Shown: positions 20,431 to 64,000 of the stretch, piece after piece
Numbering within the stretch: position 1 is the stretch's first letter
Layout: each line of letters starts with the position of its first letter
NCBI GenBank assembly: GCA_038060895.1
Contig: JBBTCT010000009.1
Location: 208,082-272,081 of the forward strand
Origin: Planctomycetota bacterium
GTDB lineage: Bacteria; Planctomycetota; MHYJ01; WSZJ01
Direction: 5' to 3'
DNA length: 64,000 nucleotides
Translations under genes and position numbers: made by a program
The notes under the pieces: model-generated
What the model was told of the DNA's origin: nothing
The model's database searches: none
What the model saw: only the letters and a program-made list of their open reading frames with translations

Positions 20431-20442
20431 GCCGGTCGAGGG

Positions 20443-39795: not shown

Positions 39796-39846
39796 CCGTC
39801 CGCTTCGCCATCCGTCCGGAACTCACAATCGTTTAACACGGTGACG

Positions 39847-48395: not shown

Positions 48396-51300
48396 ATGAA
48401 CGCCCCCGCGCCCGCCGCAGCCCGCCAGCTCTTCCATTGCGAATTCTGCGATGCTCCCCTCCGCGACTTCATGGTCTTCTGCCCTCGCTGCAGCCTACGC
48501 CTCGACGCCGGACAGCTTGCTCTCCGACGCGCCAATGTCCTCCTCGGCGAAGCGGGTTCGTGGTGCAAGTCGGGGGACCTGCCCTCCGAGATCGCCGAGC
48601 GCATGCTCGACAAGTACCGGACCGAGTACGGCACCGCCATGACCGGGCTCATCGCTCGTTCGCCGAAGTTCCGGTCCGGCGCGGTTCCCGTTGCGAACGC
48701 GGTGGCGCCCGGGGCATCGACTCCGGCGGCAGCCGCTTCCGTCGTGCTTGCCCCGCCCGCCGCGGCGCCTGAACCGGTCGAGGTTCCGAAGCCGGCCGAA
48801 AACCCGCCCGGTTGGGTCACCATTCCCGTCGATCCCGCCCCTCCTGTGGCGGCGGCGCCGGTCGTCCTGTCCACCGAGCCCGAAGACATTCCGGCCGCCG
48901 CGCCCGTCGAGGTCGTTTCGATGGGCGCGGACGGCCGGCCACGATTTGCCGCACCGCGTCATTCCGCCGTACGCCCGCAGGAGCCGCAGGAAGACCTGCT
49001 GTTCGGCGTGCTGTCCGAACGCCACCTCAACGTGCTCGCGAGCGTCGGCATCTTCGCGGTGTTCGTCGCCGTCGTGCTTCTGGTCTACAAGGGGTGGGAA
49101 GGGTACGCCGCGGCATCCAAGGTCGGCATGATCGCCGCTGCCGCCGGTGCTTCGATGGGCCTCGGCGCCCTTCTGCGCTCGAAGACCGTTCTCAAGACGA
49201 CCGGGAACGCGCTGTTCGTGCTCGGCACGCTTTCGACGCCCATCGTCTTCGCCGCGGCCGCCTGGTACGACCTCTTCAGCATCTCCGACTCCGTGCTCGG
49301 CGTGGCCGGGGCCGCCTCGAGTGCCGCGCTCTACGCCTGGCTGGGCCGCAAAAAGGAATTCGCGTACTTCTCATGGCTGGCGTGCGCTTCGGTGATCGTC
49401 GGGCACGGGTTCCTGCTGGACCTCTGCGGCGTGACCGGCCACGACCTGGCACCCGGGTACGGGTTGCTCGGCGCGGCGCTGGCAGTCCTGGCGGCTCGGA
49501 CCCGGCGCAAGGAACTCGAAGTCTCCGCGGGCGCCGTGCTGATCGGTTCGATGATCGCGTGCGTGCCGCTGGTGATCTGGGGACAGTTGTCGCCCGGAAT
49601 CGGGCTGGTGGGCGCGCTGGCGATGTGCGGCGGGTTCGTCGCGATGTCCGCGATCCATCCTCTCTGGATGCACGGCGCGTGGCTCGCGGCCGGCGGCGCA
49701 TCGCTCGCAGCGTGCAGGGCCTCGCACGCGACCTGGCCGGCGTGGCCGGGAGGACTCGCGGTGGCCGGGGCGCTGTCGCTGGCGGGGGCGCTGAAGAAAC
49801 ACGTGCGCACGGAGCCGCTCGTCGCGGGGGGCGCGGCGCTGCTCCTCGTCGCCGGGATCATGTGCGGGATGGGCTACGGCTCGGCGAAGTTCCCGCTCGC
49901 GGACCAGGCCCTCCTGTTCTTCGCGATCGTTGCGACGCCGGCGCTTGCCGTGACGGCCTGGAAGCGAAACGAAGAGCCGTGGGCGCTCGTGTCGATGGTG
50001 CTTCCGGGGGCGGCGTTCTTTGCGATCCGCCGGCTGCTGGAGCTTCCGGTGGGATGGCTTCCCGTCGGGCTCGGCGCTTACGCCGCGGCGCTCTACGCAT
50101 TCGGCCGCGGCACGAACGTCTTCGCGCGCGCAGCGACGCCCGTCGCGATCTTCTCGCACGTCGTCGCCTTCCTGGTCTGCTGCTACCCCGGGGCCGCGGC
50201 GCTCTCGTTCCTCGACGCCGACGCGGCGCGCATGGCTCGCGCGATCCCGCATTTCTGGGGCGACTTCGCCTGGCGCGGTGCGTTCGCCATGCTGCTCCCG
50301 GGGCTCGCGATTCTCTTCGCCCGCGTCCGCCCAGATCCGCACTTCCTGTACGGGGCGCAGCCGTCCCTTCTCGCCGCGCTCGTGTTCTCCGCTCACGCTC
50401 TTCATCTGCCTGGAGAGTGGATGACCTCGCTCGTCGCGGGGGCTTCTCTAGCCGTCGTCCTGGCGACGGTCCGGCTCGAGGACGTCTTCCGCGGTCCGGT
50501 CCGGATCATGGGAGGCGTTGCCGCCGTCCCCGCCGCGATCGCCGGGTTCGTGTTCTGGGCACAGCCCGAAGGCGCGACCTCGCTCGCCGCCTCCGGCGCG
50601 CTCGCCGTCGCTCTCGGGCTCTTCACATCCGTCGAAATCCCGATCGCCCTCGGCGCCGCGCTGCTCGCGGCCTCCTGGGCCTCGACTTCGGAAATCATGT
50701 TCGTCGCTCCGCGCTTTCTAGCCGTCGGCGCCCTCGAGTTCGTCCCCGCAGCCGCGGCGTCGCTCGTCGTGCAGGATGCGAAGAAGCGGATCGCGGCGCT
50801 GGCCGGGGTCGGTCTGGTCTGCTCCGTTGAAGTCATGCGCATGCTCGCCCGCCCGGATTCGTGGAGCGCCCCGGGCGCCGCTCTGCCCGCCCTGACGCTT
50901 GGACTTCTCGCAGCGACGTCGCTCGCGCTCGGGTTCCGTGAGAAGAGCGCCGACGAACCCCAGGAGCCCGCAGCGTGGTCGGGAATCGGCGCACTGCTCG
51001 CCATGGCCGCTGGCGGGTTCGTGGTTCTCCAAATTGGAGTGGGAGCGGATTCCCGCGCCGCCGCGTGCGCCGTGATCCCTGCCGCGCTCGTGATCGCCGG
51101 CGCGCTCCGCCTGAAGAGCGCCCAGGGTCTCCCCTGGATCGCCCTCGGCTCGGCCGGCGTCCTCCTCTCCGTCGCCTGGTCGTTCAACAGCGGTTTCGCT
51201 TCCGCAGCGGCCGCGACCGCGGTCGCCGCCGTTCCCGCCATGCTCCTCGCCTTCACCGGCCCATCGAAGGAAATCGCCTCCGCCACCGGCGCCGGCCTCC

Positions 51301-52790
51301 TCAGCATCTCCGCCGGTTGCCTCGCCCACGCCGCCCACGTCCGCGCCCCCTGGCTCGCCCCTGCCTGCGCCCTCGTCCCCGTCGCCTTCGCCCTCGCCGG
51401 CCGCGCCCGCTTCGAATTCCCGCAGGGACGCCCCTGGCTCTTCACCGGCACAGCCGGCCTCGCTCTCGCCCTCATCCTCGGCGCCACCGGCTCCTCGCTC
51501 GAATTCGCAATCGTCGCCGCCATCGCCGCCGTCCCAGCCTTCGCCCTCTCCTGCTACGGCCCCGAACGCGAAGGCACCGCCGCCGCCTTCGCCGCCCTCG
51601 CGGCCGCCTCCGCCGCCGCCTTCGCTCACAACATGCACCTGCCCGCCGCCTGGATCCCTGTCGCCTGCGCGGCCGTCCCCGCTTCTCTCGTGGCCCTCGG
51701 CGCCTACGCCCATTTCCTCCCGCAGGGAAAACCCTGGGCCGCCACCTCCGCCGCCGCCCTCGCCATCGCCCTGAGCTACTCCCTCGTCCACGGCCCGCTC
51801 TCGTTTGCCGTCACCGCCCTCATCTGCGCCGGCGCGGCCGGAAGCGCCATCCGCTTCGCCCCCGCCACGCTGGCCGGAGTCGCCGCCCTCCTCTTCAACG
51901 CCAGCGTCACCGCCTTCCTCATCCACGCCGGCCTCGACGTCCGCGTCGCCGCGCCGCTCCTCGTGTCCCTCGCCTCCATGGAAGCGCTGGCCGCTTCGCT
52001 CGCCGGCTCGCGCACGGCGTCGCACTCGGTGTTCGCGGCCGCGGGCGCGCTCGCGTTCTCGGCGGTGGTCTGGGCCTTCGTGGGACCTCGTGGAGGCGAA
52101 GTCCACCTTCTCCCCGGAATGATCTCCCTCGGCATCGCGGCCGTCGCCGCTTCCGTCGCCGCGATAATCCGCCGGCAACCCTACCTCTGGGCCGTCACCG
52201 CCTGCGCCGGCGTCGCCGAGTTCTACCTCGCCCTCCGGCATTTCGACGTCACGACCCTCGAGGCTTACACCTTCCCGCCCGCGATCGCCCTCATCGCCTG
52301 GTCTCATTTCGCCACCCGCCGTACCGCCACCGTCGTCCCTGACGCGCCGCACGGGCCGGTCGTCGAAGCGGTGCTCAGCGACTGGGCGCGCCGGCAGGTC
52401 GCGACGCTTCATGAACAAATCGGCAGCGTCCGCCTTCTCGCGATCCTCGGCGCGCTCGTGCCGACGGTCTTCCTCGCCCTGCCGTCCTCCGAAGTCGCCC
52501 ACCTTCCGTACGCGCTCGGCGGAAGCGCCGCCGTGCTGGTGGCGGGCGTTCTCGCGCGCCGCAAAGCGGAAGCGGTCGCCGGGATTTGCGGGCTTGGCGG
52601 CCTGGTTGTCGTCAAGGCCATCGAGTGGATGGTGGAGCAGCAGCTCAGCGCGGCGTGGTGGATCCTGGTCGTCGGCGCGGCGCTGATCGGGTTCGTCGCG
52701 GTGTTCGAGGTCCGCAGGAGCTGGTACTTGAAAGGCAAGGGGGAGGCGGTGAGGAAGGTGGTTGAGGCTTACCTGGCGAAGTGGAGGTAG
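48396..52790 (+). CDS. Giant polytopic membrane protein with N-terminal zinc ribbon (DUF2157/SCO7613-like)
   Basis: CEFC..CPRC, Pro/Ala linker, dozens of hydrophobic helices, LEAYTFP near the C-terminus. Confidence 0.8.
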   Translation: MNAPAPAAARQLFHCEFCDAPLRDFMVFCPRCSLRLDAGQLALRRANVLLGEAGSWCKSGDLPSEIAERMLDKYRTEYGTAMTGLIARSPKFRSGAVPVANAVAPGASTPAAAASVVLAPPAAAPEPVEVPKPAENPPGWVTIPVDPAPPVAAAPVVLSTEPEDIPAAAPVEVVSMGADGRPRFAAPRHSAVRPQEPQEDLLFGVLSERHLNVLASVGIFAVFVAVVLLVYKGWEGYAAASKVGMIAAAAGASMGLGALLRSKTVLKTTGNALFVLGTLSTPIVFAAAAWYDLFSISDSVLGVAGAASSAALYAWLGRKKEFAYFSWLACASVIVGHGFLLDLCGVTGHDLAPGYGLLGAALAVLAARTRRKELEVSAGAVLIGSMIACVPLVIWGQLSPGIGLVGALAMCGGFVAMSAIHPLWMHGAWLAAGGASLAACRASHATWPAWPGGLAVAGALSLAGALKKHVRTEPLVAGGAALLLVAGIMCGMGYGSAKFPLADQALLFFAIVATPALAVTAWKRNEEPWALVSMVLPGAAFFAIRRLLELPVGWLPVGLGAYAAALYAFGRGTNVFARAATPVAIFSHVVAFLVCCYPGAAALSFLDADAARMARAIPHFWGDFAWRGAFAMLLPGLAILFARVRPDPHFLYGAQPSLLAALVFSAHALHLPGEWMTSLVAGASLAVVLATVRLEDVFRGPVRIMGGVAAVPAAIAGFVFWAQPEGATSLAASGALAVALGLFTSVEIPIALGAALLAASWASTSEIMFVAPRFLAVGALEFVPAAAASLVVQDAKKRIAALAGVGLVCSVEVMRMLARPDSWSAPGAALPALTLGLLAATSLALGFREKSADEPQEPAAWSGIGALLAMAAGGFVVLQIGVGADSRAAACAVIPAALVIAGALRLKSAQGLPWIALGSAGVLLSVAWSFNSGFASAAAATAVAAVPAMLLAFTGPSKEIASATGAGLLSISAGCLAHAAHVRAPWLAPACALVPVAFALAGRARFEFPQGRPWLFTGTAGLALALILGATGSSLEFAIVAAIAAVPAFALSCYGPEREGTAAAFAALAAASAAAFAHNMHLPAAWIPVACAAVPASLVALGAYAHFLPQGKPWAATSAAALAIALSYSLVHGPLSFAVTALICAGAAGSAIRFAPATLAGVAALLFNASVTAFLIHAGLDVRVAAPLLVSLASMEALAASLAGSRTASHSVFAAAGALAFSAVVWAFVGPRGGEVHLLPGMISLGIAAVAASVAAIIRRQPYLWAVTACAGVAEFYLALRHFDVTTLEAYTFPPAIALIAWSHFATRRTATVVPDAPHGPVVEAVLSDWARRQVATLHEQIGSVRLLAILGALVPTVFLALPSSEVAHLPYALGGSAAVLVAGVLARRKAEAVAGICGLGGLVVVKAIEWMVEQQLSAAWWILVVGAALIGFVAVFEVRRSWYLKGKGEAVRKVVEAYLAKWR

Positions 52791-53862: not shown

Positions 53863-55134
53863 ATGCTGCGGGCCGCTCTCATTGCCAGCCTTTCCGTGCT
53901 CAGTGCGCTCGTCGCGCGCGCCGAGAGCGCCATTCCTTCCGGCTTCGTCAAGGTCGAGAAGAACGGCGCCGTCCAGATTCACATGGCCAACGCCAAATGG
54001 ACGTCCAAGACGGAGTTCATGATCAAATTCAACGACCTGCAGAAATCGCTCAACGAGTTCTGGAAAGCGGACGTGGAATCTCTGAGCGCCGGGTCCAATT
54101 CGCGCTTCGAGGAGCGTGCGATTCCCAGGGTGGACCTCGTGATCTTCGACAACGAGGCGGATCACGATGACTTCATGATGAAGAACGGCGCGCCCGACGA
54201 TTCGCGCCCCGGTGCGCCGTCCGACACGGTCTACCTGATGCTCATCGACGGGAAAGTCAAGGGAGCCGGCTGGGAAGTTCTCGCGCGGCGGCTATCGAGG
54301 GCGTACGCGTGGCACGGCCTGTACTTCGGCCCTCCGCCCTGGCTCGATCGCGGCATGGCGGAGTACTTCGCTTTCGCGAACAAAGCGGTGAAACCGGCCG
54401 AATCGGAAGCGTATCTCGCAATGGTGGAGCGGTTGCACGAAGTGCAGACGCGCGGCGCGGAGAAACCGCTGGCCGACACGCTTTCCAACGCTGGCGAGAA
54501 CTGGACACGCGAGGATACCGACAACGCGTGGTGTCTCTGCCACGTGCTGATGACCGAGTGCAAGAACCTGGCGGTCGACCTGTGGGCGATTCTCAGCACG
54601 CAGCAGGGCTGCGCGTACGACCGGCGCGACGGCGTCATCAGTGACTCCCGGCGGCTTGTGAAGTACCAGCTCGAACGCGCGTTCGGCGGGACGGAGCCGC
54701 TTCAGGCCGGCTGGGACTGGCACCGCGACCAGGTGATCAAGGGCGGGGCGGGAATGGCGAGGCTGAAGAAGGCGCCTGGGTCGGTGCGGGACGCCACGGC
54801 GTTCATGGTCATCAGTTTTTCGGCTGTGGTGAAGTCGGCGAACTCGACGAGTCTGGAGACGGGCGGATTTTTCGCGTACAGCGGTCCCTGGCCCGGACCG
54901 ATCACGGTGACGGCGGCGCTCGCCGACAAATCGAAGTCCTTCGGCGGGGAAACGGAAATCGCCGGTGATCGATCGGACAAGCAGGGGACTCCGGCGAAAT
55001 GGAAAGAGAAGCGGATACCGGTGCCGGTGAGCTGGTGGAATGCGTTTCTTCGAGTGACGGTGAGGTGGGAAGTGGATGGCGGTGGGGTCTACCAGTTCTC
55101 CAGTGTGCGGGAGGTTTCGATCCCGAACCGGTAG
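53863..55134 (+). CDS. Exported hypothetical protein with a degenerate gluzincin/DUF1570-like region
   Basis: Signal peptide; PPWLDRGMAEYF resembles PxWLxEGxAEYF; no HExxH. Confidence 0.7.
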   Translation: MLRAALIASLSVLSALVARAESAIPSGFVKVEKNGAVQIHMANAKWTSKTEFMIKFNDLQKSLNEFWKADVESLSAGSNSRFEERAIPRVDLVIFDNEADHDDFMMKNGAPDDSRPGAPSDTVYLMLIDGKVKGAGWEVLARRLSRAYAWHGLYFGPPPWLDRGMAEYFAFANKAVKPAESEAYLAMVERLHEVQTRGAEKPLADTLSNAGENWTREDTDNAWCLCHVLMTECKNLAVDLWAILSTQQGCAYDRRDGVISDSRRLVKYQLERAFGGTEPLQAGWDWHRDQVIKGGAGMARLKKAPGSVRDATAFMVISFSAVVKSANSTSLETGGFFAYSGPWPGPITVTAALADKSKSFGGETEIAGDRSDKQGTPAKWKEKRIPVPVSWWNAFLRVTVRWEVDGGGVYQFSSVREVSIPNR

Positions 55135-55370
55135 TAAGGAGGTCGGGGCGGTTCGTGCCTTTGAAAAGGGGAAATGTAAGGTCGGGTGAACGTTCCCTCG
55201 ATGGGTAGACATAAGTAATTACATGCCATTGTGTTGCGTCATGATCCAGCGCTGCTTTCAGCGTTTTTAAGTAAGCCGCGCTGAACAATGGATCGACTGA
55301 CATGTGCCTATCACAGCCACAAACCCATTGATGCCAATACTTTGTGTCCGTGATCACCGCGTTGTCACAG

Positions 55371-55386
55371 GGGCACACCCTTTGCT
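55371..55386 (+). promoter_or_regulatory. Sigma54 (-24/-12) promoter
   Basis: GGGCAC-ACCCT-TTGCT versus consensus TGGCAC-N5-TTGCW; exact GG-N10-GC spacing; about 50 nt before ATG 55438. Confidence 0.6.
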
Positions 55387-55437: not shown

Positions 55438-58400
55438 ATGGTTCACCTGCTCGTGCGATTCGAAGGCGCCGAAGAGAAGTTCTCTTTCTCGCAGGACGTC
55501 ATCACACTGGGACGAGTCGCTTCCAACACGATCCAGGTCAAGGACGTCAAGGCCAGCCGCACTCACTGCGAGATCCGCAGAACGGATGCGGGCTGGAAAC
55601 TTGTGGACCTCGAGTCGTCGAACGGGACGACGGTCAACGGCACGAAGGTGAACACCCACGCTCTGGTCCCCGGCGACGTCCTGTCGATCGGCGCTTTCGA
55701 AATGGTTTTCGAGCCCGCCGAGGCCAGTGCCGTCAAGGTTCCTGAAAAGAAGCACGAGGAGCCGATTGAAAAGACCGTCGTGGACAAAGCTCCGTCCAAG
55801 GCTCATCCCCATCTTCATCACGCTGGCGCGGCATCGGAAGCCCCTGCGATGGCGGTTTCCGAGGCCGCTGCCAAGCGTCGTCTCACCTCAATCCTCGTCA
55901 AGAGCGGCGTCGCCGCCGCGGTCCTCATCGCGGGCGTCATCGCGCTGAACTCGATGCGCGGCGAGTGGGCCCGCCGGGACGCCCAGGAAGCCGCCTATAA
56001 TTCCGCGATCAAGCTCGCCGATGCCGGCGAACTCTCCGACGCCGTGACACGGCTCGAATCCTTCGTCAGCAGCAGGCCCGATTCCGATCTCGCGAAGAAA
56101 GCGTCCGCCAAACTGGGCGAGCTGAAAGGCGTCATCGCGAAGCGGACCGAAGAATCCGCCCGCCGGTTTGAAAAAGTCGTCGCAGAACTCCTGGCCCGCC
56201 AGCACGCCACCAGCGCCGCCGTCCGCTTCGACAGCGCGCGATCGCAGGTCGACGCCTACCTCTCGAGCGGCGATTTCTCCGCCGCCGTCGACGAGGCCAA
56301 GCGCTTCATGATGGATTACACCGAAGGCGAGTCGCACGACCGCATGGCGTCCCTGCTCAAGAAGGCCCTCGGCCTGGCCGCGACGGCCTGGGACGACCTG
56401 GAAGCCGAAGCCAACGCCCTCGTCAAGGCGGAGAGATACGCCGAGGCGACGGCCCTTCTCGCCGACGCGCAGGACCGCTTTGCGGGAACGCGCTACGGTT
56501 ACGAGGTCGCTTCCAAGGTCCGCGCCATCGGCCGCCTGTCGGGCGTGACCGCGGCCTACGCTTCCGGCGCCCCCGAAATGTCGGCCCAGGCGCAGGAATC
56601 GATGCTGGCCGTGTCGGACCTGGTGAAGGCGCGGCAGTACGCAGCGGCGCTGAAGGCGTACGACAAAGTGGTCGGCGCGATGGCAGAGAAGGAGCGCGCG
56701 GCCTTTGCGGCGCGGCGCGAGGACATCGCGCGCGAAGCCGGCATTTTCGGGAAGCTTCTCGCAGCGATCAACGACGGCGGCATGAAGGACTACGCGATCG
56801 ACCTCGGCGGCTCCGTGACCGGCCACCTGTCGCAGGCCTCGGACCTCGGCGTCACGATCGAGTTCAAGGACCAGACAGGGAAGGGCGGGACGACCGGACG
56901 CAAGTGGGTGCAGGTCCCGGGCGCCGAAATGCTGGCTTACTTCCGGCAGCTGAAGATGGACGCGATGGAACTGCTCGGGCTGGCGGCCTTCTGCTACGAC
57001 AACCGGCTGCCGCAGGACGGCGCGGACATCCTCAACGACCTCATCAAGGAGCAGGGCTCGATGCAGTCGCCGGCCTACCAGTTCATCGCCCGCGTCCGGT
57101 CCATGGGCGTGCCGAGCGACGGCTTCGTCTTCTTCGAGCGCGGCTGGTACACCCACACGGAATACCTGTACGCGAAGCTGGATTACAAGGCGAAGAAGGC
57201 CGCGACGATGATCGGGAAAATCGACGCGAAGCTCGCGGACCAGGGATATGCGATCTACCAGGAGCTGAAGGGCGACTCCACCCTCGAAGCGGAGTTCATG
57301 GCGAAGGCGACCGGGTACTTCCTGACGGCGCTTCAGGAGAAGCGCCAGGGGATCATGAACGGCCTGAAAAACTCTCAGAACATTGCGAATTTCAAGGCGC
57401 TTCAGGAACTCAAGAAAGAGCTGAACAAGCGCCGGGCCGCGGCGATCGCGATCATCTACGACAAGACGATTTATCCGGACGAGAACCACGGGATTGAAGG
57501 GCAGCCGAAGGTGGACGACGCGGTGGCGCTGGTGAGGGAGCTGTGGGACAAGCCGCTGGCGGTCGTGGCGCGGCTGGACGACGGCGTCCGGGTGCTGGTC
57601 GAGGCCGGCGAGAAGACGAACGCGTGGCTGAAGGAGATGGGGGAAGCGGGGGACGAGGCGGCGATGGAGGAGTACGAGCTGCTGCTGGGGCACGTCAACG
57701 AGACGCTGAACCTGAAGAACGTGTGCCTGGACAAGACGGAGCAGAAGCTGCGCGACTACAACAAGCGGGTTGCCGCCTACAACAAGACCGGCGGCGAGAC
57801 GCAGATGGTGGGCGTGGAGATCGAGTGCGCGAAGATCACGAACGAATACCGCGAGATGATGGGCCGTGCCTACCTGGAACTGGACGACATGCTCGGGAAG
57901 TGCGCGAAAAAGCACAGCCAGGAGATGATTGATCTCGCGTATTTCGCGCACGAGTCGCCGACGGCCCGGCTCCGGACGCCGGGCGACCGTGCGAAGGTAG
58001 AAGGGTATTTGGGGGGCGTGGGCGAAAACATCGCGATGGGTTACGGCGACGCGCGGTCGGCCTTCATGGGCTGGTACAACTCGAGCGGCCACCATCGCAA
58101 CATGCTTTCGGACAGCTGGAACCACATCGGCCTCGGCGCCATCGGCTCGATGTGGACGGAGAACCTCGGTCGCGGCACGAGTCATCTCGGCAGCAAGGCC
58201 GACGACGGCAAAGCTTCTGCGGGCGGGCCGAAACCGAAGAATCCGGTGCGCGCAGGCGTCGATGGACTGCCGACGCGCGGCGAGAAGGAGAAGGGCGCCA
58301 GCAACAAGCCGGCGGCCGGTGGCGACAAGTCCGCGGGAAAGGACCAGCCGGAGAGCCCGCACAAACAGCCTGACGGCAAATGCACGGGCACGACGCCGTA

Positions 58401-58470
58401 TGATGGGGGCATCGGGAACCAGGAAGGTGACGGGAAGAAGAAGGATGCCGGGTCCGAAGAAAAGAAATAG
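55438..58470 (+). CDS. FHA - TM - helical - CAP(SCP) domain protein, copy 1
   Basis: FHA: LGR..ASRTHC..DLESSNGT; TM; CAP: KHSQEM..YFAH..GENIA..WYNSSGHHRNML. Confidence 0.9.
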   Translation: MVHLLVRFEGAEEKFSFSQDVITLGRVASNTIQVKDVKASRTHCEIRRTDAGWKLVDLESSNGTTVNGTKVNTHALVPGDVLSIGAFEMVFEPAEASAVKVPEKKHEEPIEKTVVDKAPSKAHPHLHHAGAASEAPAMAVSEAAAKRRLTSILVKSGVAAAVLIAGVIALNSMRGEWARRDAQEAAYNSAIKLADAGELSDAVTRLESFVSSRPDSDLAKKASAKLGELKGVIAKRTEESARRFEKVVAELLARQHATSAAVRFDSARSQVDAYLSSGDFSAAVDEAKRFMMDYTEGESHDRMASLLKKALGLAATAWDDLEAEANALVKAERYAEATALLADAQDRFAGTRYGYEVASKVRAIGRLSGVTAAYASGAPEMSAQAQESMLAVSDLVKARQYAAALKAYDKVVGAMAEKERAAFAARREDIAREAGIFGKLLAAINDGGMKDYAIDLGGSVTGHLSQASDLGVTIEFKDQTGKGGTTGRKWVQVPGAEMLAYFRQLKMDAMELLGLAAFCYDNRLPQDGADILNDLIKEQGSMQSPAYQFIARVRSMGVPSDGFVFFERGWYTHTEYLYAKLDYKAKKAATMIGKIDAKLADQGYAIYQELKGDSTLEAEFMAKATGYFLTALQEKRQGIMNGLKNSQNIANFKALQELKKELNKRRAAAIAIIYDKTIYPDENHGIEGQPKVDDAVALVRELWDKPLAVVARLDDGVRVLVEAGEKTNAWLKEMGEAGDEAAMEEYELLLGHVNETLNLKNVCLDKTEQKLRDYNKRVAAYNKTGGETQMVGVEIECAKITNEYREMMGRAYLELDDMLGKCAKKHSQEMIDLAYFAHESPTARLRTPGDRAKVEGYLGGVGENIAMGYGDARSAFMGWYNSSGHHRNMLSDSWNHIGLGAIGSMWTENLGRGTSHLGSKADDGKASAGGPKPKNPVRAGVDGLPTRGEKEKGASNKPAAGGDKSAGKDQPESPHKQPDGKCTGTTPYDGGIGNQEGDGKKKDAGSEEKK

Positions 58471-58515
58471 CCAGGGCCGCGTTACGGCCCTAAAGACAAC
58501 CTTGAGGGAAATACC

Positions 58516-61419
58516 ATGAAGCTGGCGATTCGCGTGAACGGGCAGGTCCACGTTTTTGAAACCGATCAGCCTGCCGTGACGTTCGGGCGCTCCCCGGATT
58601 GCGCGATCCAGGTCGGCGACCAGGCCGCAAGCCGGCTTCACTGCCGGCTGGAATCGACGCCGGAGGGGTGGAAGCTTGTCGATCTCGAATCCTCAAACGG
58701 GACGTCGGTTAACGGCCAGCTCACCAACAGCCGCCTCCTCAGGGATGGCGACGTGATCTCGATCGGCGCCTTCTCCGCCGTTTTGAACCCGGCCGCCGTA
58801 ACGCCCGTCGCCGATCCCGTTCGACCACTGCCCGCAGGTCCGGTCGCGCAGGTCGCCCGCGTCGATCACGCCCAGCGGGTCGTGTCTTCCGGCGCTCGCC
58901 GCGAAAAGGACGGAGCGCGCGGCCTGGTCGTCTCAGGCCTGCTCGCGGCTTCGCTCCTCTTCGGAGGCGTCTGGGCCGTCAATCACTTCTATGGCGGCAA
59001 CAACACCGCGGAACAGCGCGCCACGCTCGAAAAGGCATCGCAGCTCGCGTCCAGGGGCGAGCTGGACTCGGCCGAAAAGGCGCTGATCGAACTCCTCAGC
59101 CACCCCGTCGGCTCGGACATCCATAAGGACGCCAAAAAGGCGCTCGCGGACATCCAGGGCAGAATCGCCACGCGCGACGCGAAGGCGAAGCAGGCCGCCG
59201 AGGCCGCCGAGTACGCCGCGGCTTCGACGAAGCGCGCCTCCGATCTCCAGGCCGAATTCGACAAGGCCACGGCCGACGCCGACGCTCTCGTCGTGCAGGA
59301 GGCGTACGGTCCGGCGCTCGACATCTGGAAGCGGTTCAACGCGGACAACCCCGGTTCGGCGCTGTCTGCGAAGGCGGACGCCCGTCTCGCCGAGGTGATG
59401 AAGTCGGTCCAGGATGCCTGGGACGTCCTTGAGAATCGCGCCAACAGTCTTGTGAAGATGGAGGAAACGTCCGCCGCCGCGGCCCTCGTCGGGTCGTCAA
59501 TCGAGAAGTTCCAGGGCACGCGCTTCCAGTTCTCCGCGCAGGACAAACTCGCCGCCCTGAACCGCCTTGCGGGGCTGGGCACCGATGTTGCCGGGACCGG
59601 CTCCAAGCTTTCCTCCAGGACCCAGGACTCCCTTCTCACCGTGCTCGACCTCGTCAAGGCCCGCCGTTACGCGCAGGCCCTTCGCGAAATCGACGGCGTG
59701 CTGTCGGGCGCCGCCGCGGCCGAGAAGGCGAGCCTGGAAGCGCAGCGTGCGGAGATCGCTTCGCAGGCCGCCCTGTTCGGCAAGCTGGTGGACGCCGTGA
59801 ACGGCGGCTGGTTCAAGAGCCGCCCGCTCCAGCTGGCCAACGACATGAGCGCATACCTCGTGACCGCGACCGAGGACACCCTCTCGATCGACTTCCGCGA
59901 CGAGGCAGGCAAGGGCGGGACGACTTCGAAGCGCTGGCACCAGGTCGAGGCCGAAGACATGGTCGGCTACTTCCGGTCGCTGGACCTCAGCTCCGCCGAC
60001 CAGCTCTCGCTCGCCGCCTTCTGCTACAGCAACGCGATGAATTTCACCGCCGCCGAAGTGCTTTACGCCCTGATCCGCAAAGATGCTTCCCGCCAGGCCG
60101 CCGCCTTTGAGCTCGTGGCGCGCCAGCGCGGGATCGCCGTGCCGCAGAACGGATTCCAGTGGTACGAGGGCGGGTTCTACACGCAGGAAGAACTGAAGTT
60201 CGCGAAGCTCGAAGTGGACGCCAAGAAAGGCGCCCAGCTCGTGGCGCAGTCGGATCCGAAGAAGGCCGCTGAGGGGTACGCGCTGTACCAGCGGGTGATG
60301 GCGGACCCGTCCGGCTCGGCCGACCAGAAGGCCCGGGTGAAGGCCCAGTACATGAGCGCCGTCAAGACCCGGAAGGCGGCCCTGCTGAAGAAGCTCCAGG
60401 ATCCGACGGGCGTCGCCAGCGCGATTGCGATGCGCGAGGTGAAGAAGGAGCTGAATGAGCGGCGAGAGGAAGCTCTTCGCCTGATTTTCGACAAGGGGAC
60501 CTATTCGGACGAAGACAAGGGCCGGTCCGGGCAGTCGAAGGTGAATTCGGCGGTCGCGGCCGTCAAGGAGTTGTGGGACAACCCGATGCCGTGGGCCTCG
60601 AAGTCGGTCAAGTCGATCGCGGACCTGGTGAGCGGCGTCGAGCAGTCCAACGAGTGGCTGCGCAGCATGGGCGCCCCGGCGTCCGAGACCGATCCGTCCG
60701 CCGTCTCGTCGGCGTTGTCGGCCGCGGGAGCCGCTATGAATCTGCGCGAGTTCTGCATGACGGCCACGGAACGCATGCTTCTCGATCGTCACAAGGCCGT
60801 GACCGCGTACAACGACGGGCTCAGCGGATTCGAACTTCCGGAAAAGGCCTGCATCCGGGCGATCAACGACTATCGCTTCATGATGGGCCGCGCGGATCTC
60901 GAAGCGCAGGTGCAGCTGGGGACCGCGGCCCGGCAGCACGCTTCCAATATGCACGAAGCCAAGTACTTCTCGCACGAGGGGCCGTTGGCGAGTCGCAAGT
61001 CGCCCGCGGACCGCGCGCGCTACGCCGGTTATCCGGGCGGCGTGATCGGAGAGAACATCGCACAGGGCGTCGAGAGCGCCGGTTCGGTCTTCGAGGCCTG
61101 GTACAACTGGAGCACCTATCACCGGAACATGCTCAGCGACCTCTACACGCAGGTCGGCGCCGGCAAGTCCTGGACGCTCTGGACGGTTGACTTCGGCCGC
61201 GGCGGGTCCGCGATGGGCGCGACGGTAGCGGGCAAGGGCAAGGGCGGTTCCAAGGGGGGCAACCGCGATGGCGGCGGCGCTTCGGGCACCTCCGGCACTT
61301 CGGGCGGCTCCTCGAGCCGTGGCGGAACCAGCGGAAGCAGTGGCGGAATGACAGGTGGAACGAGGGGTGGAGTCGCAGGCGGAGTTGCAGGTGGTTCAAC
61401 CGGCGGCGGAGGATGCTGA
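58516..61419 (+). CDS. FHA - TM - helical - CAP(SCP) domain protein, copy 2
   Basis: FHA: FGR..ASRLHC..DLESSNGT; TM; CAP: QHASNM..YFSH..GENIA..HRNML; Gly/Ser tail ending GGGGC. Confidence 0.9.
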   Translation: MKLAIRVNGQVHVFETDQPAVTFGRSPDCAIQVGDQAASRLHCRLESTPEGWKLVDLESSNGTSVNGQLTNSRLLRDGDVISIGAFSAVLNPAAVTPVADPVRPLPAGPVAQVARVDHAQRVVSSGARREKDGARGLVVSGLLAASLLFGGVWAVNHFYGGNNTAEQRATLEKASQLASRGELDSAEKALIELLSHPVGSDIHKDAKKALADIQGRIATRDAKAKQAAEAAEYAAASTKRASDLQAEFDKATADADALVVQEAYGPALDIWKRFNADNPGSALSAKADARLAEVMKSVQDAWDVLENRANSLVKMEETSAAAALVGSSIEKFQGTRFQFSAQDKLAALNRLAGLGTDVAGTGSKLSSRTQDSLLTVLDLVKARRYAQALREIDGVLSGAAAAEKASLEAQRAEIASQAALFGKLVDAVNGGWFKSRPLQLANDMSAYLVTATEDTLSIDFRDEAGKGGTTSKRWHQVEAEDMVGYFRSLDLSSADQLSLAAFCYSNAMNFTAAEVLYALIRKDASRQAAAFELVARQRGIAVPQNGFQWYEGGFYTQEELKFAKLEVDAKKGAQLVAQSDPKKAAEGYALYQRVMADPSGSADQKARVKAQYMSAVKTRKAALLKKLQDPTGVASAIAMREVKKELNERREEALRLIFDKGTYSDEDKGRSGQSKVNSAVAAVKELWDNPMPWASKSVKSIADLVSGVEQSNEWLRSMGAPASETDPSAVSSALSAAGAAMNLREFCMTATERMLLDRHKAVTAYNDGLSGFELPEKACIRAINDYRFMMGRADLEAQVQLGTAARQHASNMHEAKYFSHEGPLASRKSPADRARYAGYPGGVIGENIAQGVESAGSVFEAWYNWSTYHRNMLSDLYTQVGAGKSWTLWTVDFGRGGSAMGATVAGKGKGGSKGGNRDGGGASGTSGTSGGSSSRGGTSGSSGGMTGGTRGGVAGGVAGGSTGGGGC

Positions 61420-61480
61420 GGGCAGTAACACCCCGCCGGCAGTTGCCGGCAACGGAACGCACGAGACCGAAACTTAACTG

Positions 61481-61518
61481 GCGCACCCCGGAGGCGGAAG
61501 ACGCCTCCGGGGTTGCGC
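61481..61518 (+). other. GC-rich intergenic hairpin without a U-tract
   Basis: GCGCACCCCGGAGGCG / CGCCTCCGGGGTTGCGC between copies 2 and 3. Confidence 0.55.
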
Positions 61519-61545
61519 TTCAAGAAAAGCGGAGAAAGCCACGTC

Positions 61546-64000
61546 ATGATTCGCCTTCTCATCCGGACGGGTGGGCAGAGCCGCGAGCTCTCCTTCGACG
61601 GGGCCGTCGTCAACTTCGGAAGCGGCGCGGAGTGCAAGGTCTGCGTGGACGATCCTCAGGCCGATGCGGAGCAGTGCCGCATTGAAAAGGTCCCCAACGG
61701 CTGGAAGCTCGTTGACCTCGAATCCACGAACGGCACGTCCGTGAACGGTGCCGTCGTGAACGCCCGCCTGCTCAAGGACGGCGACGTTATCCGCATCGGG
61801 GAGTTCGAGGCCGTGTTCAACCCGGGCGGCGCCTCCAGGACAGGCAAGCCGTCGCGCGCCGCGGCCCGCGCGGGAGCCGACGCCATGTTCTGGATCAAGA
61901 CCGGCGGCGTCGCGGCCGCTGTCCTGATCGCCACGGTCGTCGGCATCAAGGTTTTCGTCGGCGACGACAAGGCCGCCGCCCAGCGCGATTCCCTGAAGGC
62001 CGCACAGCAGACGGCCGGTAACGGCGACCTTGAGGCTGCCGAAGCGGCCATCAACGCGCTCCTTTCGGCGCCCATCGACCCGGGCGTCCAGCGTGATGCA
62101 AAGAAATCGCTCGACGACGTGCGCGCGAAGATCGCCTCCCGCAATGAAAGGGAACAAAGGGAACTGGAAGCGGCGATTGCGGCCGAGGAGGCCCGGCGGC
62201 GCGCAGACGAATTCCGGGTTCTGTTTGACGAGGCGACGACCGAGTCCGACCGCCTCGTCGTGCAGGAGAATTTCGGCGAGGCTCTGAACGTCTGGAAGAG
62301 CTTCGCGCGGGAAACGACGGACGCGGAATTCGCTTCAAAAATCGACGGACGCACGAAGGAAGTGCTGAAGGCTTCGCAGGACGCGTGGGATGCGCTGGAG
62401 ACGCGCGCGAACAGTCTGGTGAAAATGGAGGAGTATCCCCAGGCGGCGCTGGCGGTGGCGGCGGCCATCGAGAGATTCCAGGGAACGCGTTTCCGCTACC
62501 GCGCCCAGGAGAAGCTCGAGGGGATCCGCCGCCTGATGGGTGTGACGTCGGCGTACGTCGCCGGCGGCGCGAGCCTTACCGCCGGGGCGCAGGACTCCCT
62601 GCTCGCGATCGACGACCTCGTCAAGGCTCGCCGGTACGGGCAGGCGCTTCGCCAGATCGACGGCCTCCTCTCCTCGGTCACCGCCGACCATTCGGCGGCG
62701 CTTCGGGCCCAGCGCGCAGAAATCGCCGCGCAGGGAGAGTTGTTCGGAAAACTGGTGGCTGCCGTGAACAACGGCTGGTTCACGTCGCACCCGATCGAGC
62801 TCGGAAACGGAACCAGGGCCATCCTGGCGAAGGCGAACGACGAGGTTCTCGACGTCGAGTTCAAGGACGAGGAAGGGAAGGGCGGGACGTCTTCGCGGAA
62901 GTGGCCGCAGGTGGATGCGGAGGACATGCTCGGGTACTTCCGCGCGATCGAACTCGGGCCTGAGGACACGATCGCGCTGGCGGCGTTCTGCTACAGCAAC
63001 GGGCTCACCTTCGCTGGCGCGGAAATTCTGAGCGCAGCGATCGCTTCGGACCCCTTGAAGAAGCCGGCCGCGTTCGAGCTCGTCGCGCGCCACCGCGGCA
63101 TCCCGATTCCCGACGGCGGATTCGTCTGGTACGAGGGCGGCTGGTACACCAGCGAAGAACTGAAGTTCGCGAAGCTCGACCTGGACGTGAAGAAGGCGGC
63201 CCTGCTGCTCGGGAACATCGACGCGAAGAAGGCGGCGGAGGGGATGGCTCTGTACCGCCGCGCGACGAGCGACCCGTCGGCAGGGACCGAAGTGAAGTCG
63301 AAAGCGGTGACGCTCTGCGTCGGCGCCCTCAAGACGCGCCGGACGGCGATCCTGCGGAGGCTGCAGGACAGCCGGGGGCTCGTGAATCCCGCGGTGATGA
63401 CTGCGCTCAAGAAGGACCTGATCAAGCGTCGCCAGGCGGCCATCAAGGTCATCTTCGACGTGAAGATTTACCCCGAAGAGAATCACGGAATCGTCGGGCA
63501 ACCGACCGTGGACGCCGCCGTTGGAAAGGTTCGTGAGCTCTGGGACAACCCGCTTCAGGTGGTTTCGAAAGCAAATCCCGCGATTGAAAACATGATCGCC
63601 GCGAGCCAGCAGACGGACGACTGGCTGCGAGAGCTCGGCGCTTCCGCGACCGAAGCGGAGAAGGCCCTCGTGGCCAAGCTGCTGCTTCAGGTGAACGACG
63701 CGCTCAGCCTGAAGAACTACTGCATCAGCGGAAACGAGCGCTCCCAGCTCGAGAAATTCCGGGCCATCATGTCGTACAACGACCGCCATCTCGGCTTCGA
63801 CTCGCGCGAGAAGGACTGCATCCGGGCCACCAATGAGTACCGCTTCATGCTGGGAATCCAGGCCGTGGAAGCGCAGGACCAGCTGGGCCGCGCGGCGCGT
63901 AAGCACAGCGTGGAGATGGAGAAGCTCGGGTACTTCGCGCACGTCGGGCCGACGAAGGGCCTTGCGACGCCTGGCGAGCGGTGCGCAGCGGAAGGGTATG
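61546..64000 (+). CDS. FHA-like - TM - helical - CAP domain protein, copy 3 (3' end lies outside the window)
   Basis: Not in the ORF track because it has no stop. Manual translation gives MIRLLIRTGG...WKLVDLESTNGTSVNG...KHSVEMEKLGYFAH, colinear with copies 1 and 2. Confidence 0.88.
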   Translation, partial: MIRLLIRTGGQSRELSFDGAVVNFGSGAECKVCVDDPQADAEQCRIEKVPNGWKLVDLESTNGTSVNGAVVNARLLKDGDVIRIGEFEAVFNPGGASRTGKPSRAAARAGADAMFWIKTGGVAAAVLIATVVGIKVFVGDDKAAAQRDSLKAAQQTAGNGDLEAAEAAINALLSAPIDPGVQRDAKKSLDDVRAKIASRNEREQRELEAAIAAEEARRRADEFRVLFDEATTESDRLVVQENFGEALNVWKSFARETTDAEFASKIDGRTKEVLKASQDAWDALETRANSLVKMEEYPQAALAVAAAIERFQGTRFRYRAQEKLEGIRRLMGVTSAYVAGGASLTAGAQDSLLAIDDLVKARRYGQALRQIDGLLSSVTADHSAALRAQRAEIAAQGELFGKLVAAVNNGWFTSHPIELGNGTRAILAKANDEVLDVEFKDEEGKGGTSSRKWPQVDAEDMLGYFRAIELGPEDTIALAAFCYSNGLTFAGAEILSAAIASDPLKKPAAFELVARHRGIPIPDGGFVWYEGGWYTSEELKFAKLDLDVKKAALLLGNIDAKKAAEGMALYRRATSDPSAGTEVKSKAVTLCVGALKTRRTAILRRLQDSRGLVNPAVMTALKKDLIKRRQAAIKVIFDVKIYPEENHGIVGQPTVDAAVGKVRELWDNPLQVVSKANPAIENMIAASQQTDDWLRELGASATEAEKALVAKLLLQVNDALSLKNYCISGNERSQLEKFRAIMSYNDRHLGFDSREKDCIRATNEYRFMLGIQAVEAQDQLGRAARKHSVEMEKLGYFAHVGPTKGLATPGERCAAEGY

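What the first reader, a model, noticed from the sequence alone, without database searches (positions are those of the whole stretch)
55438..64000. Tandem array of at least three FHA-TM-helical-CAP(SCP) proteins: candidate transmembrane phospho-signalling system
Seen: three co-oriented, colinear ~1000-aa paralogues with an N-terminal FHA, one TM helix, ~600 aa of helical sequence and a CAP domain with its His residues retained. They share private motifs: KGGT(T/S)..(K/R)W.QV, LAAFCY.N, GF..(Y/F)E.G(W/F)YT..E...AKL and GQ..V..AV..V.ELWD.P. Known: FHA domains bind pThr set by Hanks-type kinases; CAP/SCP domains are extracytoplasmic and bind metal or lipids. Inference: a cytoplasmic pThr reader linked by a long periplasmic stalk to a CAP effector, possibly as a hetero-oligomer. 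I know of no characterised system with this architecture.
Basis: partly seen in the sequence, partly recalled or inferred. Interest (0 to 1): 0.82.

Follow-up and report, generated by a model that had tools for sequence, protein, structure and literature searches.

The report
Triplicated FHA–CAP envelope-spanning signalling proteins
Three neighbouring copies of an unstudied planctomycete membrane protein pair a phosphothreonine-reading domain inside the cell with a CAP domain outside it, and in related genomes they sit beside a secreted HEAT/von Willebrand A protein and a Ser/Thr kinase, which suggests a new way of linking protein phosphorylation to the cell envelope.

Summary
Three co-oriented paralogues (37-45% identical) each have an N-terminal FHA domain, one TM helix, about 620 aa without a Pfam family, and a C-terminal CAP/YkwD domain.

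- The array has exactly three copies in complete relatives.
- The third copy starts at ATG 61546 and is cut at residue 818 of 905.
- Only the first ~270 aa of the "stalk" look like helical repeat. The next ~350 aa are a conserved region with no Pfam or PDB sequence match.

New findings:
- The family is large (338 clusters at 50% identity, E<=1e-30). Every named member is a Planctomycetota MAG, and names are generic.
- In relatives the array is followed by an exported HEAT+vWA protein with an intact MIDAS motif (14 of 27 loci). A PknB-like Hanks kinase lies about 1.8 kb downstream in 8 loci.
- Two tandem duplications gave copies A, B and C. C lost the pThr-binding Arg and Ser. B changed a near-invariant CAP His. 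A keeps both.

Best reading: a kinase-controlled, envelope-spanning adaptor. It is an undescribed variant of the FHA/vWA/kinase theme.

The parts
55176..55286 (+). Two copies of GTAAG-N6-TGAAC (55176-55191 and 55271-55286) upstream of the first paralogue. Candidate promoter or regulator sites.
   Evidence: These are the only 2 matches in the 64-kb window, against 0.08 expected. The same motif lies upstream of the first family gene in L001, L002, L003, L004, L005 and L007. The blocks are conserved in the 5-locus alignment.
55371..55386 (+). Conserved block GGGCACACCCTTTGCT about 60 nt before the start codon. A GGAG (Shine-Dalgarno-like) follows just before the ATG.
   Evidence: Invariant in 5 of 5 aligned upstream regions. 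Exact match in L001-L004.
55438..58470 (+). Paralogue A (P0001, 1010 aa). FHA covers residues 22-85 (55501-55692), the TM helix 152-170 (55891-55947), the TPR-like region ~183-450, the conserved unknown region ~440-795, and CAP 801-901 (57838-58140). A Lys/Gly/Pro-rich tail carries a conserved Cys motif.
   Evidence: A keeps FHA R26/S40/H43/N62 and CAP H826/H838/E863/H885/H886.
58516..61419 (+). Paralogue B (P0002, 967 aa). FHA covers residues 21-84 (58576-58767), the TM helix 137-155 (58924-58980) and CAP 781-883 (60856-61164). A Gly/Ser-rich tail ends in Cys.
   Evidence: The FHA residues are canonical. The CAP position equivalent to H885 is Tyr, or Asp in one orthologue; these are the only 4 of 118 rows without His there.
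61480..61519 (+). Strong stem-loop in the B-C intergenic region.
   Evidence: Folding energy -40.9 kcal/mol, z = -5.2, and 0 of 200 shuffles fold as well. It is conserved in L002, L004 and L009, with 90% of cells paired against 34-54% when the partners are slid. There is no Rfam match.
61546..64000 (+). Paralogue C, cut by the window end (818 of 905 aa; the full protein is P0015). The degenerate FHA lies at 61612-61800 and the TM helix (residues 121-139) at 61906-61962. CAP begins at about 63823.
   Evidence: Position R26 is Ser, S40 is Asp and H43 is Gln.

Best explanation
The three genes encode bitopic inner-membrane proteins of a large, uncharacterised family seen so far only in Planctomycetota. 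Each has a cytoplasmic FHA domain, one TM helix, a periplasmic TPR-like stretch, a conserved ~350-aa region of unknown fold and a distal CAP/YkwD domain.

Shown here:
- The architecture and the likely N-in/C-out topology.
- Invariant CAP-site residues across 118 family members.
- Two successive tandem duplications (A, then B and C) with complementary site changes.
- Conserved linkage in relatives to an exported HEAT+vWA protein with an intact MIDAS motif, and to a PknB-like Hanks kinase.

Inferred mechanism:
- The co-encoded kinase creates pThr sites, either on itself, on the conserved EKTVVD linker motif of copy A, or on another membrane-proximal protein.
- The FHA domains of A and B bind these sites.
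- Binding recruits or clusters the A/B/C proteins, probably as a mixed complex in which C is a pseudo-FHA subunit.
- Clustering positions or activates the periplasmic CAP module, together with the HEAT-vWA protein, on the cell envelope. The target is most plausibly peptidoglycan or its remodelling enzymes.

In short, this would be a kinase-controlled trans-envelope adaptor. The FHA protein would act downstream of the kinase, as in characterised bacterial FHA systems known to me.
For: Domains and topology:
- FHA and CAP are confirmed by HMM, with a single TM helix and positive-inside bias.
- FHA-less relatives begin with a signal peptide or TM anchor ahead of the shared module.

FHA:
- Its nearest solved relatives are the pThr readers Rv1747 FHA (E 1.6e-23), GarA and OdhI.
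- R26 is kept in 95 of 118 rows, S40 in 93 of 118 and H43 in 111 of 118.
- 25 of 26 non-C copies in the loci keep both R26 and S40.

CAP:
- H826, H838, E863, N888, R805, R851 and W879 are invariant in 118 of 118 rows. H886 is kept in 115 of 118.
- The domain aligns to the solved bacterial SCP domain 4ifa at E 3e-15.

Linkage (27 loci with at least 1 kb downstream):
- A HEAT-vWA gene starts within about 200 bp downstream in 14 of 27. It is Pfam-confirmed in 10, confirmed by tblastn in L004, and identified by a HEAT-vWA profile HMM and BLAST clustering in L020, L025 and L026.
- A kinase lies within 10 kb in 13 of 27. That is 11 of the 14 loci with the HEAT-vWA gene and 2 of the 13 without it.
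- An orthologous soluble kinase sits 1.75-1.9 kb downstream in 8 loci.
- The linkage spans both sides of the midpoint root of the family tree (L024 against the rest).

The partners:
- HEAT-vWA has a signal peptide and an invariant DxSxS..T..D.
- The kinase has HRD and VAIK-type motifs and no TM segment. PknB is its nearest solved relative (E 1e-36).
- A HEAT-vWA homologue (P0190, 70% identical to that of L002) is recorded on a contig of 500,106 b. That is the same longest-contig length as for the window's three proteins.

Duplication and divergence:
- Tree support is A 100/100, B+C 98/94, B 100/100 and C 100/100.
- C lost R26 and S40 only after the B/C split, yet its FHA stays 72% conserved among orthologues.

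Precedents:
- DalA, a CAP-domain lipoprotein, binds peptidoglycan and co-precipitates L,D-transpeptidases, Pal and FtsZ (PMC10470522, abstract and passages; CAP/YkwD assignment in PMC5442454, passages).
- ArnA/ArnB/ArnC form an FHA-vWA-kinase trio (PMC12852372, abstract).
Against: - The kinase and HEAT-vWA genes are not in the window, which ends inside copy C. Their presence is inferred from relatives whose family proteins are 64-88% identical, and from P0190.
- The linkage is not family-wide. 13 of 27 loci lack HEAT-vWA and 14 of 27 have no kinase within 10 kb.
- Planctomycetota genomes are rich in Ser/Thr kinases, so some adjacency is expected by chance.
- No PP2C phosphatase was seen among the 156 neighbour proteins scanned.
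- No binding, phosphorylation or oligomerisation was tested.
- The CAP link to peptidoglycan rests on one distant relative. The DalA model scores 26-45 bits against a cut-off of 200.
- Copy C cannot read pThr in the canonical way.
- In more distant genomes the neighbouring kinases are receptor-type (TM segment plus TPR). The direction of signalling may therefore differ, or be outside-in.
Confidence: 0.45

Rival explanations
1. Outside-in 'split receptor kinase'. The periplasmic CAP/unknown-domain module, with HEAT-vWA as co-receptor, senses an envelope or external ligand. Ligand-driven clustering of the A/B/C receptor brings together soluble kinase molecules docked on the FHA domains. The kinases then trans-activate and phosphorylate cytoplasmic targets.
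For: - In the A/B/C clade the co-encoded kinase has no TM segment and no sensor domain, only a Pro-rich tail with a conserved basic end.
- The FHA-CAP proteins carry the module's only sensor-like periplasmic parts.
- The CAP site is invariant, as expected for a ligand pocket, and the vWA MIDAS motif is intact.
- Conserved Thr motifs follow the kinase domain.
Against: - In the characterised bacterial FHA systems I can recall, the FHA protein acts downstream of the kinase (recalled; ArnA/B abstract PMC12852372; PpkA-Fha1 abstract PMC13713981).
- In distant single-copy genomes the linked kinases have their own TM segment and periplasmic TPR region.
- No docking was tested.
Confidence: 0.2
2. Phosphorylation-independent structural scaffold. 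The proteins would form an envelope-spanning strut of some machine, in the manner of YscD/EscD, GltG or TolA. The FHA domains would serve as plain protein-protein modules, and the kinase would be only a neighbour.
For: - All three hit PF16697 (the YscD cytoplasmic FHA) and, weakly, GltG (25-47 bits) and the Tol-Pal protein YbgF (24.7 bits).
- GltG has the same outline: FHA, TMH, a long periplasmic extension and a globular end (PMC11761067, passages).
- Copy C has lost the pThr-binding residues yet is conserved.
Against: - A and B, and 95 of 118 family members, keep the pThr-binding Arg.
- No secretion, pilus or motor genes adjoin the array in the window or in the scanned loci.
- The kinase holds a fixed position in 8 loci.
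- GltG and YbgF scores are far below their cut-offs.
Confidence: 0.15
3. Regulated-proteolysis circuit. The conserved C-terminal tails of the three proteins would be substrates of the neighbouring C-terminal processing (S41) peptidase, and cleavage would release or activate the CAP module.
For: - An S41/Prc peptidase with HEAT and PDZ domains lies convergent to the kinase. This holds in 5 of 5 A/B/C-clade loci that extend that far: L002, L006, L009 and L012 by Pfam and L004 by BLAST cluster.
- The prc model scores 285 bits against a cut-off of 218.6.
- The tails carry conserved Cys-containing motifs.
Against: - The linkage is seen only in close relatives.
- The peptidase is on the opposite strand.
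- The tails differ between A and B/C, and no test was done.
Confidence: 0.05

Closest known systems
Mycobacterial FHA / Hanks-kinase pairs (GarA-PknB, Rv1747 FHA domains, FhaB/FipA Rv0019c)
   Same: - These are the nearest solved FHA sequences (E 1e-23 to 1e-21).
- PknB is the nearest solved kinase (E 1e-36).
- Copies A and B have the canonical GR/SxxH/NG residues.
- There is an NCBIfam FhaB_Rv0019c hit (34-47 bits).
   Different: - None of them has a periplasmic CAP domain or this TM architecture.
- Scores are below the equivalog cut-offs (125-200 bits).
- The cell-envelope roles of the mycobacterial proteins are recalled, not checked here.
GltG of the Myxococcus Agl-Glt gliding machine
   Same: Cytoplasmic FHA, one TMH, a long periplasmic extension and a C-terminal globular domain. 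The authors compare it with TolA (PMC11761067, passages).
   Different: - GltG has two FHA domains and a TonB-C-like end instead of CAP.
- It works with AglRQS motors, and no such genes are here.
- The NCBIfam score is 25-47 bits against a cut-off of 650.
FHA + vWA + Ser/Thr kinase gene trios (Sulfolobus ArnA/ArnB/ArnC; Deinococcus DRA0331-0334)
   Same: The same three domain types are encoded side by side. In ArnA/B the FHA binds the phosphorylated vWA protein (PMC12852372, abstract; bioRxiv 10.64898/2026.01.23.701218, abstract).
   Different: - There all parts are cytoplasmic. Here the vWA protein has a signal peptide, so it can only meet the periplasmic part of the FHA protein.
- No PP2C was found.
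- The FHA protein is membrane-spanning and carries CAP.
Pseudomonas aeruginosa H1-T6SS threonine phosphorylation pathway (TagQR-PpkA-Fha1)
   Same: Periplasmic sensing proteins, a Hanks kinase and an FHA protein link envelope state to the assembly of a machine (PMC13713981, abstract).
   Different: - Fha1 is soluble.
- The periplasmic vWA domain is part of PpkA itself (recalled, not checked here).
- No T6SS genes were seen near the array.
DalA (RSP_1200) of Rhodobacter sphaeroides, and the YkwD family (PDB 4ifa)
   Same: - It is a bacterial CAP/YkwD domain outside the cytoplasm, and the HS..M, F.H.SP, GENIA and GH.N.L motifs align.
- DalA binds peptidoglycan and associates with the divisome (PMC10470522).
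   Different: - DalA is a small outer-membrane lipoprotein without FHA or a TM helix.
- Model scores are 26-45 bits (DalA cut-off 200) and 51-64 bits (YkwD cut-off 171).

Membership tests
FHA domain (PF00498) | HMM score above the Pfam gathering score | tested here: met
   58.8, 63.4 and 50.8 bits against 20.7. 18 of 18 A1 members match.
FHA domain (PF00498), as a pThr reader | Conserved Arg (GR), Ser and His (SxxH) and Asn (NG) that contact the phosphothreonine. The role of these residues is recalled from the FHA literature. | tested here: met
   - Copies A and B have R26, S40, H43 and N62.
- Not met for copy C, which has Ser, Asp and Gln at positions 26, 40 and 43.
- The same loss is seen in 4 of 4 C orthologues in the loci and in 6 of 7 C-type rows of A1.
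CAP / SCP superfamily (PF00188) | HMM score above the gathering score | tested here: met
   - Copies A and B score 49.4 and 38.2 bits against 21.1.
- Copy C scores 15.1 bits in the window because it is truncated.
- The full-length P0015 matches CAP at E <= 0.001 and YkwD at 51 bits.
CAP / SCP superfamily (PF00188) | Conserved His/Glu cavity residues. The His-Glu-Glu-His tetrad is recalled; the mapping is by motif alignment to 4ifa. | tested here: met
   H826, H838 and E863 are kept in 118 of 118 rows, and H886 in 115 of 118. In copy B the neighbouring H885 is Tyr.
YkwD family (TIGR02909) | Score at or above the curated cut-off of 171 bits | tested here: not met
   64.4, 54.4 and 51.1 bits.
DalA divisome-associated lipoprotein (NF052539) | Score at or above the cut-off of 200 bits, and a lipoprotein signal | tested here: not met
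   26.5 and 45.5 bits. There is no N-terminal signal peptide or lipobox, because the N-terminus is an FHA domain.
GltG (NF033760) | Score at or above the cut-off of 650 bits, and an Agl-Glt gene context | tested here: not met
   25-47 bits. No motor or Glt genes appear among the neighbours.
T3SS YscD/EscD inner-membrane ring protein | FHA-TM plus periplasmic ring-building motifs, inside a T3SS gene cluster | tested here: not met
   Only the FHA part matches PF16697. No T3SS genes appear among the neighbours.
FHA-vWA-Ser/Thr kinase signalling trio (ArnA/B/C-like) | FHA, vWA and Hanks kinase genes adjacent | tested here: met
   - Met in relatives: L002, L004, L006-L009, L012 and L024 have all three in a row.
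- Not visible in the window itself, which ends inside copy C.
FHA-vWA-Ser/Thr kinase signalling trio (ArnA/B/C-like) | FHA and vWA proteins in the same compartment, so that FHA can bind the phosphorylated vWA protein | tested here: not met
   The HEAT-vWA protein has an N-terminal signal peptide in L002, L006, L011 and L012, with similar hydrophobic N-terminal segments in the remaining rows of A3. The FHA domain is cytoplasmic.
Known anti-phage defence systems (PADLOC) | Match of the FHA-CAP or HEAT-vWA proteins to a defence-system model | tested here: not met
   There are no hits for P0001, P0002 or HEAT-vWA. P0015 has one weak hit (E 1.2e-4). Only the kinase matches generic kinase models.

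The most novel reading that the evidence does not exclude
A, B and C assemble into a hetero-oligomeric, single-pass receptor that serves as the missing sensor and membrane anchor of a soluble Hanks kinase. That would make it a bacterial counterpart of cytokine-receptor/JAK logic. The invariant CAP pocket and a novel ~350-aa periplasmic domain would read the state of the planctomycete cell wall, together with a MIDAS-bearing HEAT-vWA co-receptor. The subunits would be specialised: A has both sites intact, B has an altered CAP pocket, and C is a pseudo-FHA subunit.
Probability: 0.15. Interest if true: 0.8.

Novelty: new variant of a known kind. Interest (0 to 1): 0.6.

Why it matters
Planctomycetota have unusual envelopes and divide without FtsZ. 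They also encode very many Ser/Thr kinases, almost none with a known target.

This family offers a concrete, conserved candidate link between Hanks-kinase signalling and the periplasm or cell wall. It has at least 338 clusters at 50% identity, invariant CAP-site residues, and a fixed exported vWA partner and kinase in one large clade.

It would also give bacterial CAP/YkwD domains a defined signalling context. Their function is almost unknown apart from DalA. The conserved ~350-aa periplasmic region has no Pfam or PDB sequence relative.

The A/B/C array is a natural experiment in subfunctionalisation: one copy lost the pThr site and another changed the CAP site.

One limit on immediate impact is that every named member seen here comes from an uncultured MAG.

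Tried and rejected
There is therefore no model, no fold search and no fold for residues ~440-795.
- **Complex prediction** was sent for the periplasmic part of the L002 copy-A protein with the L002 HEAT-vWA protein.
- **Sequence routes to the unknown region** gave nothing. Pfam at E <= 10 found nothing credible. A PDB profile search found only E >= 0.013 chance-level hits. The Atlas feature search scored 0.80, in the noise. hhalign against HEAT-vWA gave probability 0.15%.
- **Search for a kinase fusion (Rosetta stone).** P0182 is a kinase-TM-helical protein with only a weak TPR-like match and no MID2 or CAP. Rejected.
- **Profile word-search with A2** was swamped by FHA-only proteins and added no annotation.
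- **Cluster look-up** of 10 diverse members gave only generic names.
- **Defence-system reading:** no PADLOC support.
- **Secretion-system reading:** no such neighbours. The T2SS-type ATPase at 28872-30029 is 25 kb away.
- **RNA elements:** Rfam found nothing in the region or the window, and there are no tRNAs. No sigma-70-like promoter, and no terminator on the + strand inside the array.
- **Gene caller error:** my greedy caller missed the HEAT-vWA gene of L004. tblastn corrected this, and all linkage counts were redone on six-frame ORFs.
- **Not checked:** The source contig beyond base 64000 was not available.
Full report
**1. What is in the window.**
Three long ORFs lie head to tail on the + strand: 55438-58470 (A, 1010 aa), 58516-61419 (B, 967 aa) and 61513/61546-63999 (C, open at the window end). 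The gaps between them are 45 and 126 bp. No terminator-like site lies on the + strand inside the array.

The copies are 37% (A-B), 45% (B-C) and 38% (A-C) identical over more than 920 residues, all with E = 0. At the DNA level they share only short stretches of 66-78% identity, so there is no recent gene conversion.

Copy C is identical over 818 of 818 residues to the 905-aa database protein P0015. P0015 starts at the ATG at 61546 and supplies the missing end.

**2. Domains and topology.**
Pfam finds FHA in all three copies. CAP (PF00188) is above its gathering score in A and B. In C only the start of CAP is inside the window. All 18 of 18 members of alignment A1, including P0015, match both families. 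NCBIfam gives only sub-threshold hits: YkwD, OdhI, FhaB/FipA, GltG, DalA and YbgF.

Each protein has a single strongly hydrophobic segment, with the more positive flank on the N-terminal side, and no N-terminal signal peptide. FHA-less relatives of the family begin with a signal peptide or a TM anchor instead. FHA inside and CAP outside is therefore the consistent reading, though it was not tested experimentally.

Between the TM helix and CAP there are two parts:
- Residues ~183-450 give weak TPR/YfiO/YbgF signals and a profile match to a designer PPR protein at E 7.5e-6.
They have no Pfam hit even at E <= 10, and no meaningful PDB sequence match. A crude Chou-Fasman scan gives mixed helix/strand propensity.

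'About 600 aa of helix' is therefore only half right. The second half is a conserved region of unknown fold.

**3. The family.**
An exhaustive HMMER search with A found 338 representative clusters (50% identity) at E <= 1e-30. I classified 147 of the 150 listed hits with sub-profiles cut from A1. The three already held were left out. Of the 147:
- 146 have CAP.
- 110 have FHA plus CAP.
- 108 have FHA, the conserved middle region and CAP.

All 32 genome loci that hold a true member are MAGs titled Planctomycetota, Planctomycetia, Planctomycetales or Brocadiia. Every name a source gives is generic: 'FHA domain-containing', 'CAP domain-containing', 'YkwD' or 'hypothetical'. The 338 clusters themselves carry no taxonomy.

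In a 118-sequence alignment (A2) the following hold:
- CAP-region residues H826, H838, E863, N888, R805, R851 and W879 are invariant, as is R666 in the unknown region.
- H886 is kept in 115 of 118 rows.
- The FHA Arg (R26) is kept in 95 of 118 rows and the Ser (S40) in 93 of 118.

**4. History of the array.**
I built a careful IQ-TREE tree from 30 near-full-length rows. The 13 partial rows among the 43 true members were left out. Support values are A 100/100, B+C plus the second copies of L006 and L007 100/100, B+C 98/94, B 100/100 and C 100/100.
- Genomes L006 and L007 have two copies, A and an undivided B/C.
- L002, L004 and the window have three.
- Three further MAGs have the three copies split over contigs: L001+L009, L003+L012 and L005+L008.
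- More distant genomes have one copy.

In L002 and L004 the third copy is followed by a different gene, so the array stops at three.

The copies diverged in a complementary way:
- C lost R26 and S40. This is seen in the window, in 4 of 4 C orthologues in the loci, and in 6 of 7 C-type rows of A1.
- The undivided B/C copies of L006 and L007 keep both residues, so the loss followed the B/C split.
- The FHA of C is still 72% conserved among orthologues, against 84% for A and 82% for B.
- B alone replaces the near-invariant H885 by Tyr or Asp. These are the only 4 of 118 rows without His there.
- A keeps both sites. Its FHA-TM linker also has a conserved motif EP[IV]EKTVVD.

**5. Neighbours.**
Upstream in the window lie a ~30-TM protein of 1464 aa, a GDSL lipase and a 423-aa secreted ORF. 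None of these is linked to the family outside close relatives.

The informative genes lie downstream, beyond the window. I redid all counts on six-frame ORFs with profile HMMs. Among the 27 loci with at least 1 kb after the last family gene:
- 14 have a HEAT+vWA gene starting within about 200 bp on the same strand. Ten are Pfam-confirmed, L004 is confirmed by tblastn at 91% identity, and L020, L025 and L026 are identified by the HEAT-vWA profile HMM and BLAST clustering.
- 13 have a Hanks kinase within 10 kb. That is 11 of the 14 HEAT-vWA-positive loci. The other three have only 1.0-3.9 kb of sequence beyond the last family gene, most of it taken up by the HEAT-vWA gene. Only 2 of the 13 HEAT-vWA-negative loci have one.
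- In 8 loci an orthologous kinase sits 1.75-1.9 kb downstream.

HEAT-vWA-positive loci fall on both sides of the midpoint root, so the linkage is old.

The partner proteins have these features:
- The HEAT-vWA protein has a signal peptide and an invariant MIDAS motif, DxSxS..T..D. Its vWA part resembles the vWA domain of inter-alpha-trypsin inhibitor heavy chains (E 2.8e-17).
- The kinase of the A/B/C clade has intact catalytic motifs and no TM segment. It has a Pro-rich tail with a conserved basic end and conserved Thr motifs. PknB is its nearest solved relative.
- In distant single-copy genomes the linked kinases are receptor-type, with a TM segment and TPR repeats.
- A convergent S41/Prc peptidase with HEAT and PDZ domains follows the kinase in 5 of 5 A/B/C-clade loci that reach that far.
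- No PP2C phosphatase was seen among the 156 neighbour proteins scanned.

A HEAT-vWA homologue (P0190) is recorded on a contig of the same length (500,106 b) as the one carrying the window's proteins. This fits the genes lying just past base 64000 but does not prove adjacency.

**6. Mechanism.**
Shown here: the architecture, the conserved sites, the duplication history and the gene linkage.

Inferred: the kinase writes pThr marks, and the FHA domains of A and B read them. That recruits or clusters the A/B/C proteins and so positions the periplasmic CAP module, together with the exported HEAT-vWA protein, on the envelope.

I favour this kinase-to-FHA direction because the characterised bacterial FHA systems I know of work that way. 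The examples are the ArnA/B abstract (PMC12852372), the PpkA-Fha1 abstract (PMC13713981) and the mycobacterial cases (recalled).

I favour an envelope or peptidoglycan target because the one studied bacterial CAP protein, DalA, binds peptidoglycan and associates with L,D-transpeptidases, Pal and FtsZ (PMC10470522, abstract and passages; its CAP/YkwD assignment is in PMC5442454, passages).

The rivals are:
- An outside-in 'split receptor kinase'.
- A phosphorylation-independent strut like GltG, YscD or TolA (PMC11761067, passages).
- A Prc-type proteolytic circuit.

**7. Comparison and novelty.**
The parts are known, and the FHA+vWA+kinase trio is a recognised theme in Sulfolobus Arn and in Deinococcus DRA0331-0334 (abstracts read). 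What differs here:
- The FHA protein spans the membrane and ends in a CAP domain.
- The vWA partner is exported, so FHA and vWA cannot meet.
- The FHA protein is triplicated, with complementary site changes.

Three full-text searches for the combination found nothing relevant: FHA domain/Planctomycetes/CAP domain, forkhead-associated/SCP-like/transmembrane/Planctomycetota and FHA/YkwD. The library omits most subscription journals. I file it as a new variant of a known kind.

**8. What stayed open.**
No structure or complex prediction could be run. The fold of the unknown region, any A/B/C or HEAT-vWA interface, and FHA-kinase docking are therefore all untested.

Noticed in passing
window 55176-55191 and 55271-55286 (also 55371-55386): A direct repeat GTAAG-N6-TGAAC occurs twice, 95 bp apart, upstream of paralogue A and nowhere else in the 64-kb window (2 found, 0.08 expected). 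It recurs upstream of the first family gene in L001-L005 and L007. A further invariant block, GGGCACACCCTTTGCT, lies about 60 nt before the ATG. These may be ECF-type -35 elements or regulator sites.
   Followed up: partly
window 61480-61519: There is a very stable stem-loop (-40.9 kcal/mol, z = -5.2) between paralogues B and C. It is conserved in L002, L004 and L009 with a few compensatory changes. It has no T-run and no Rfam match. It may set different expression levels for C and for A/B. A weaker hairpin after A (58473-58491) is not significant (z = -1.7).
   Followed up: partly
window 53863-55134: A 423-aa ORF with a signal peptide sits between the GDSL lipase and paralogue A only in this genome. 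In L001, L002 and L004 the same gap is roughly 100-280 bp by different gene calls. It has no Pfam or NCBIfam hit. The Atlas gives only a lead to DUF1570/Peptidase_MA-like proteins (score 0.88-0.89, TM 0.42-0.51).
   Followed up: partly
window 48396-52790: A 1464-aa protein has about 30 predicted TM segments and an N-terminal CxxC...CxxC zinc-ribbon-like motif. It has no Pfam family, and only a sub-threshold SCO7613 C-terminal domain hit (37 bits against a cut-off of 45). It is conserved upstream of the array in L001, L002 and L005, with a fragment in L007.
   Followed up: partly
P0001 residues ~915-1010, P0002 ~900-967, P0015 ~875-905 (window 58180-58470 and 61215-61419): Low-complexity tails follow the CAP domain and carry conserved Cys-containing end motifs: 'GVAGGSTGG..C' in B and C, and 'PEGKCTGTTPYDGG' in A. 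Their function is unexplained. They might be a ligand for the vWA MIDAS site or a substrate of the nearby S41 C-terminal peptidase.
   Followed up: no
L029-L033, L037 (same MAGs as L001-L009, L012): The same genomes carry a second conserved locus. It has a different ~730-850-aa protein whose N-terminal FHA domain is 45-49% identical to that of paralogue A. Next to it lie conserved unknown genes and a ~1000-aa kinase.
   Followed up: no
L023 13048-14547: In this single-copy genome the HEAT-vWA gene is replaced by two tandem ~207-aa paralogues. By eye they have a thioredoxin-like Cys motif. They sit between the FHA-CAP gene and the orthologous kinase.
   Followed up: no
window 2-4468, 18613-21732, 37987-41721: The rest of the window looks like ordinary chromosome. 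It has an alpha-2-macroglobulin homologue, YidC, MnmE, LepA and a long signal peptidase I homologue. There are no tRNA genes, no Rfam matches and no kinase in the 64 kb.
   Followed up: yes
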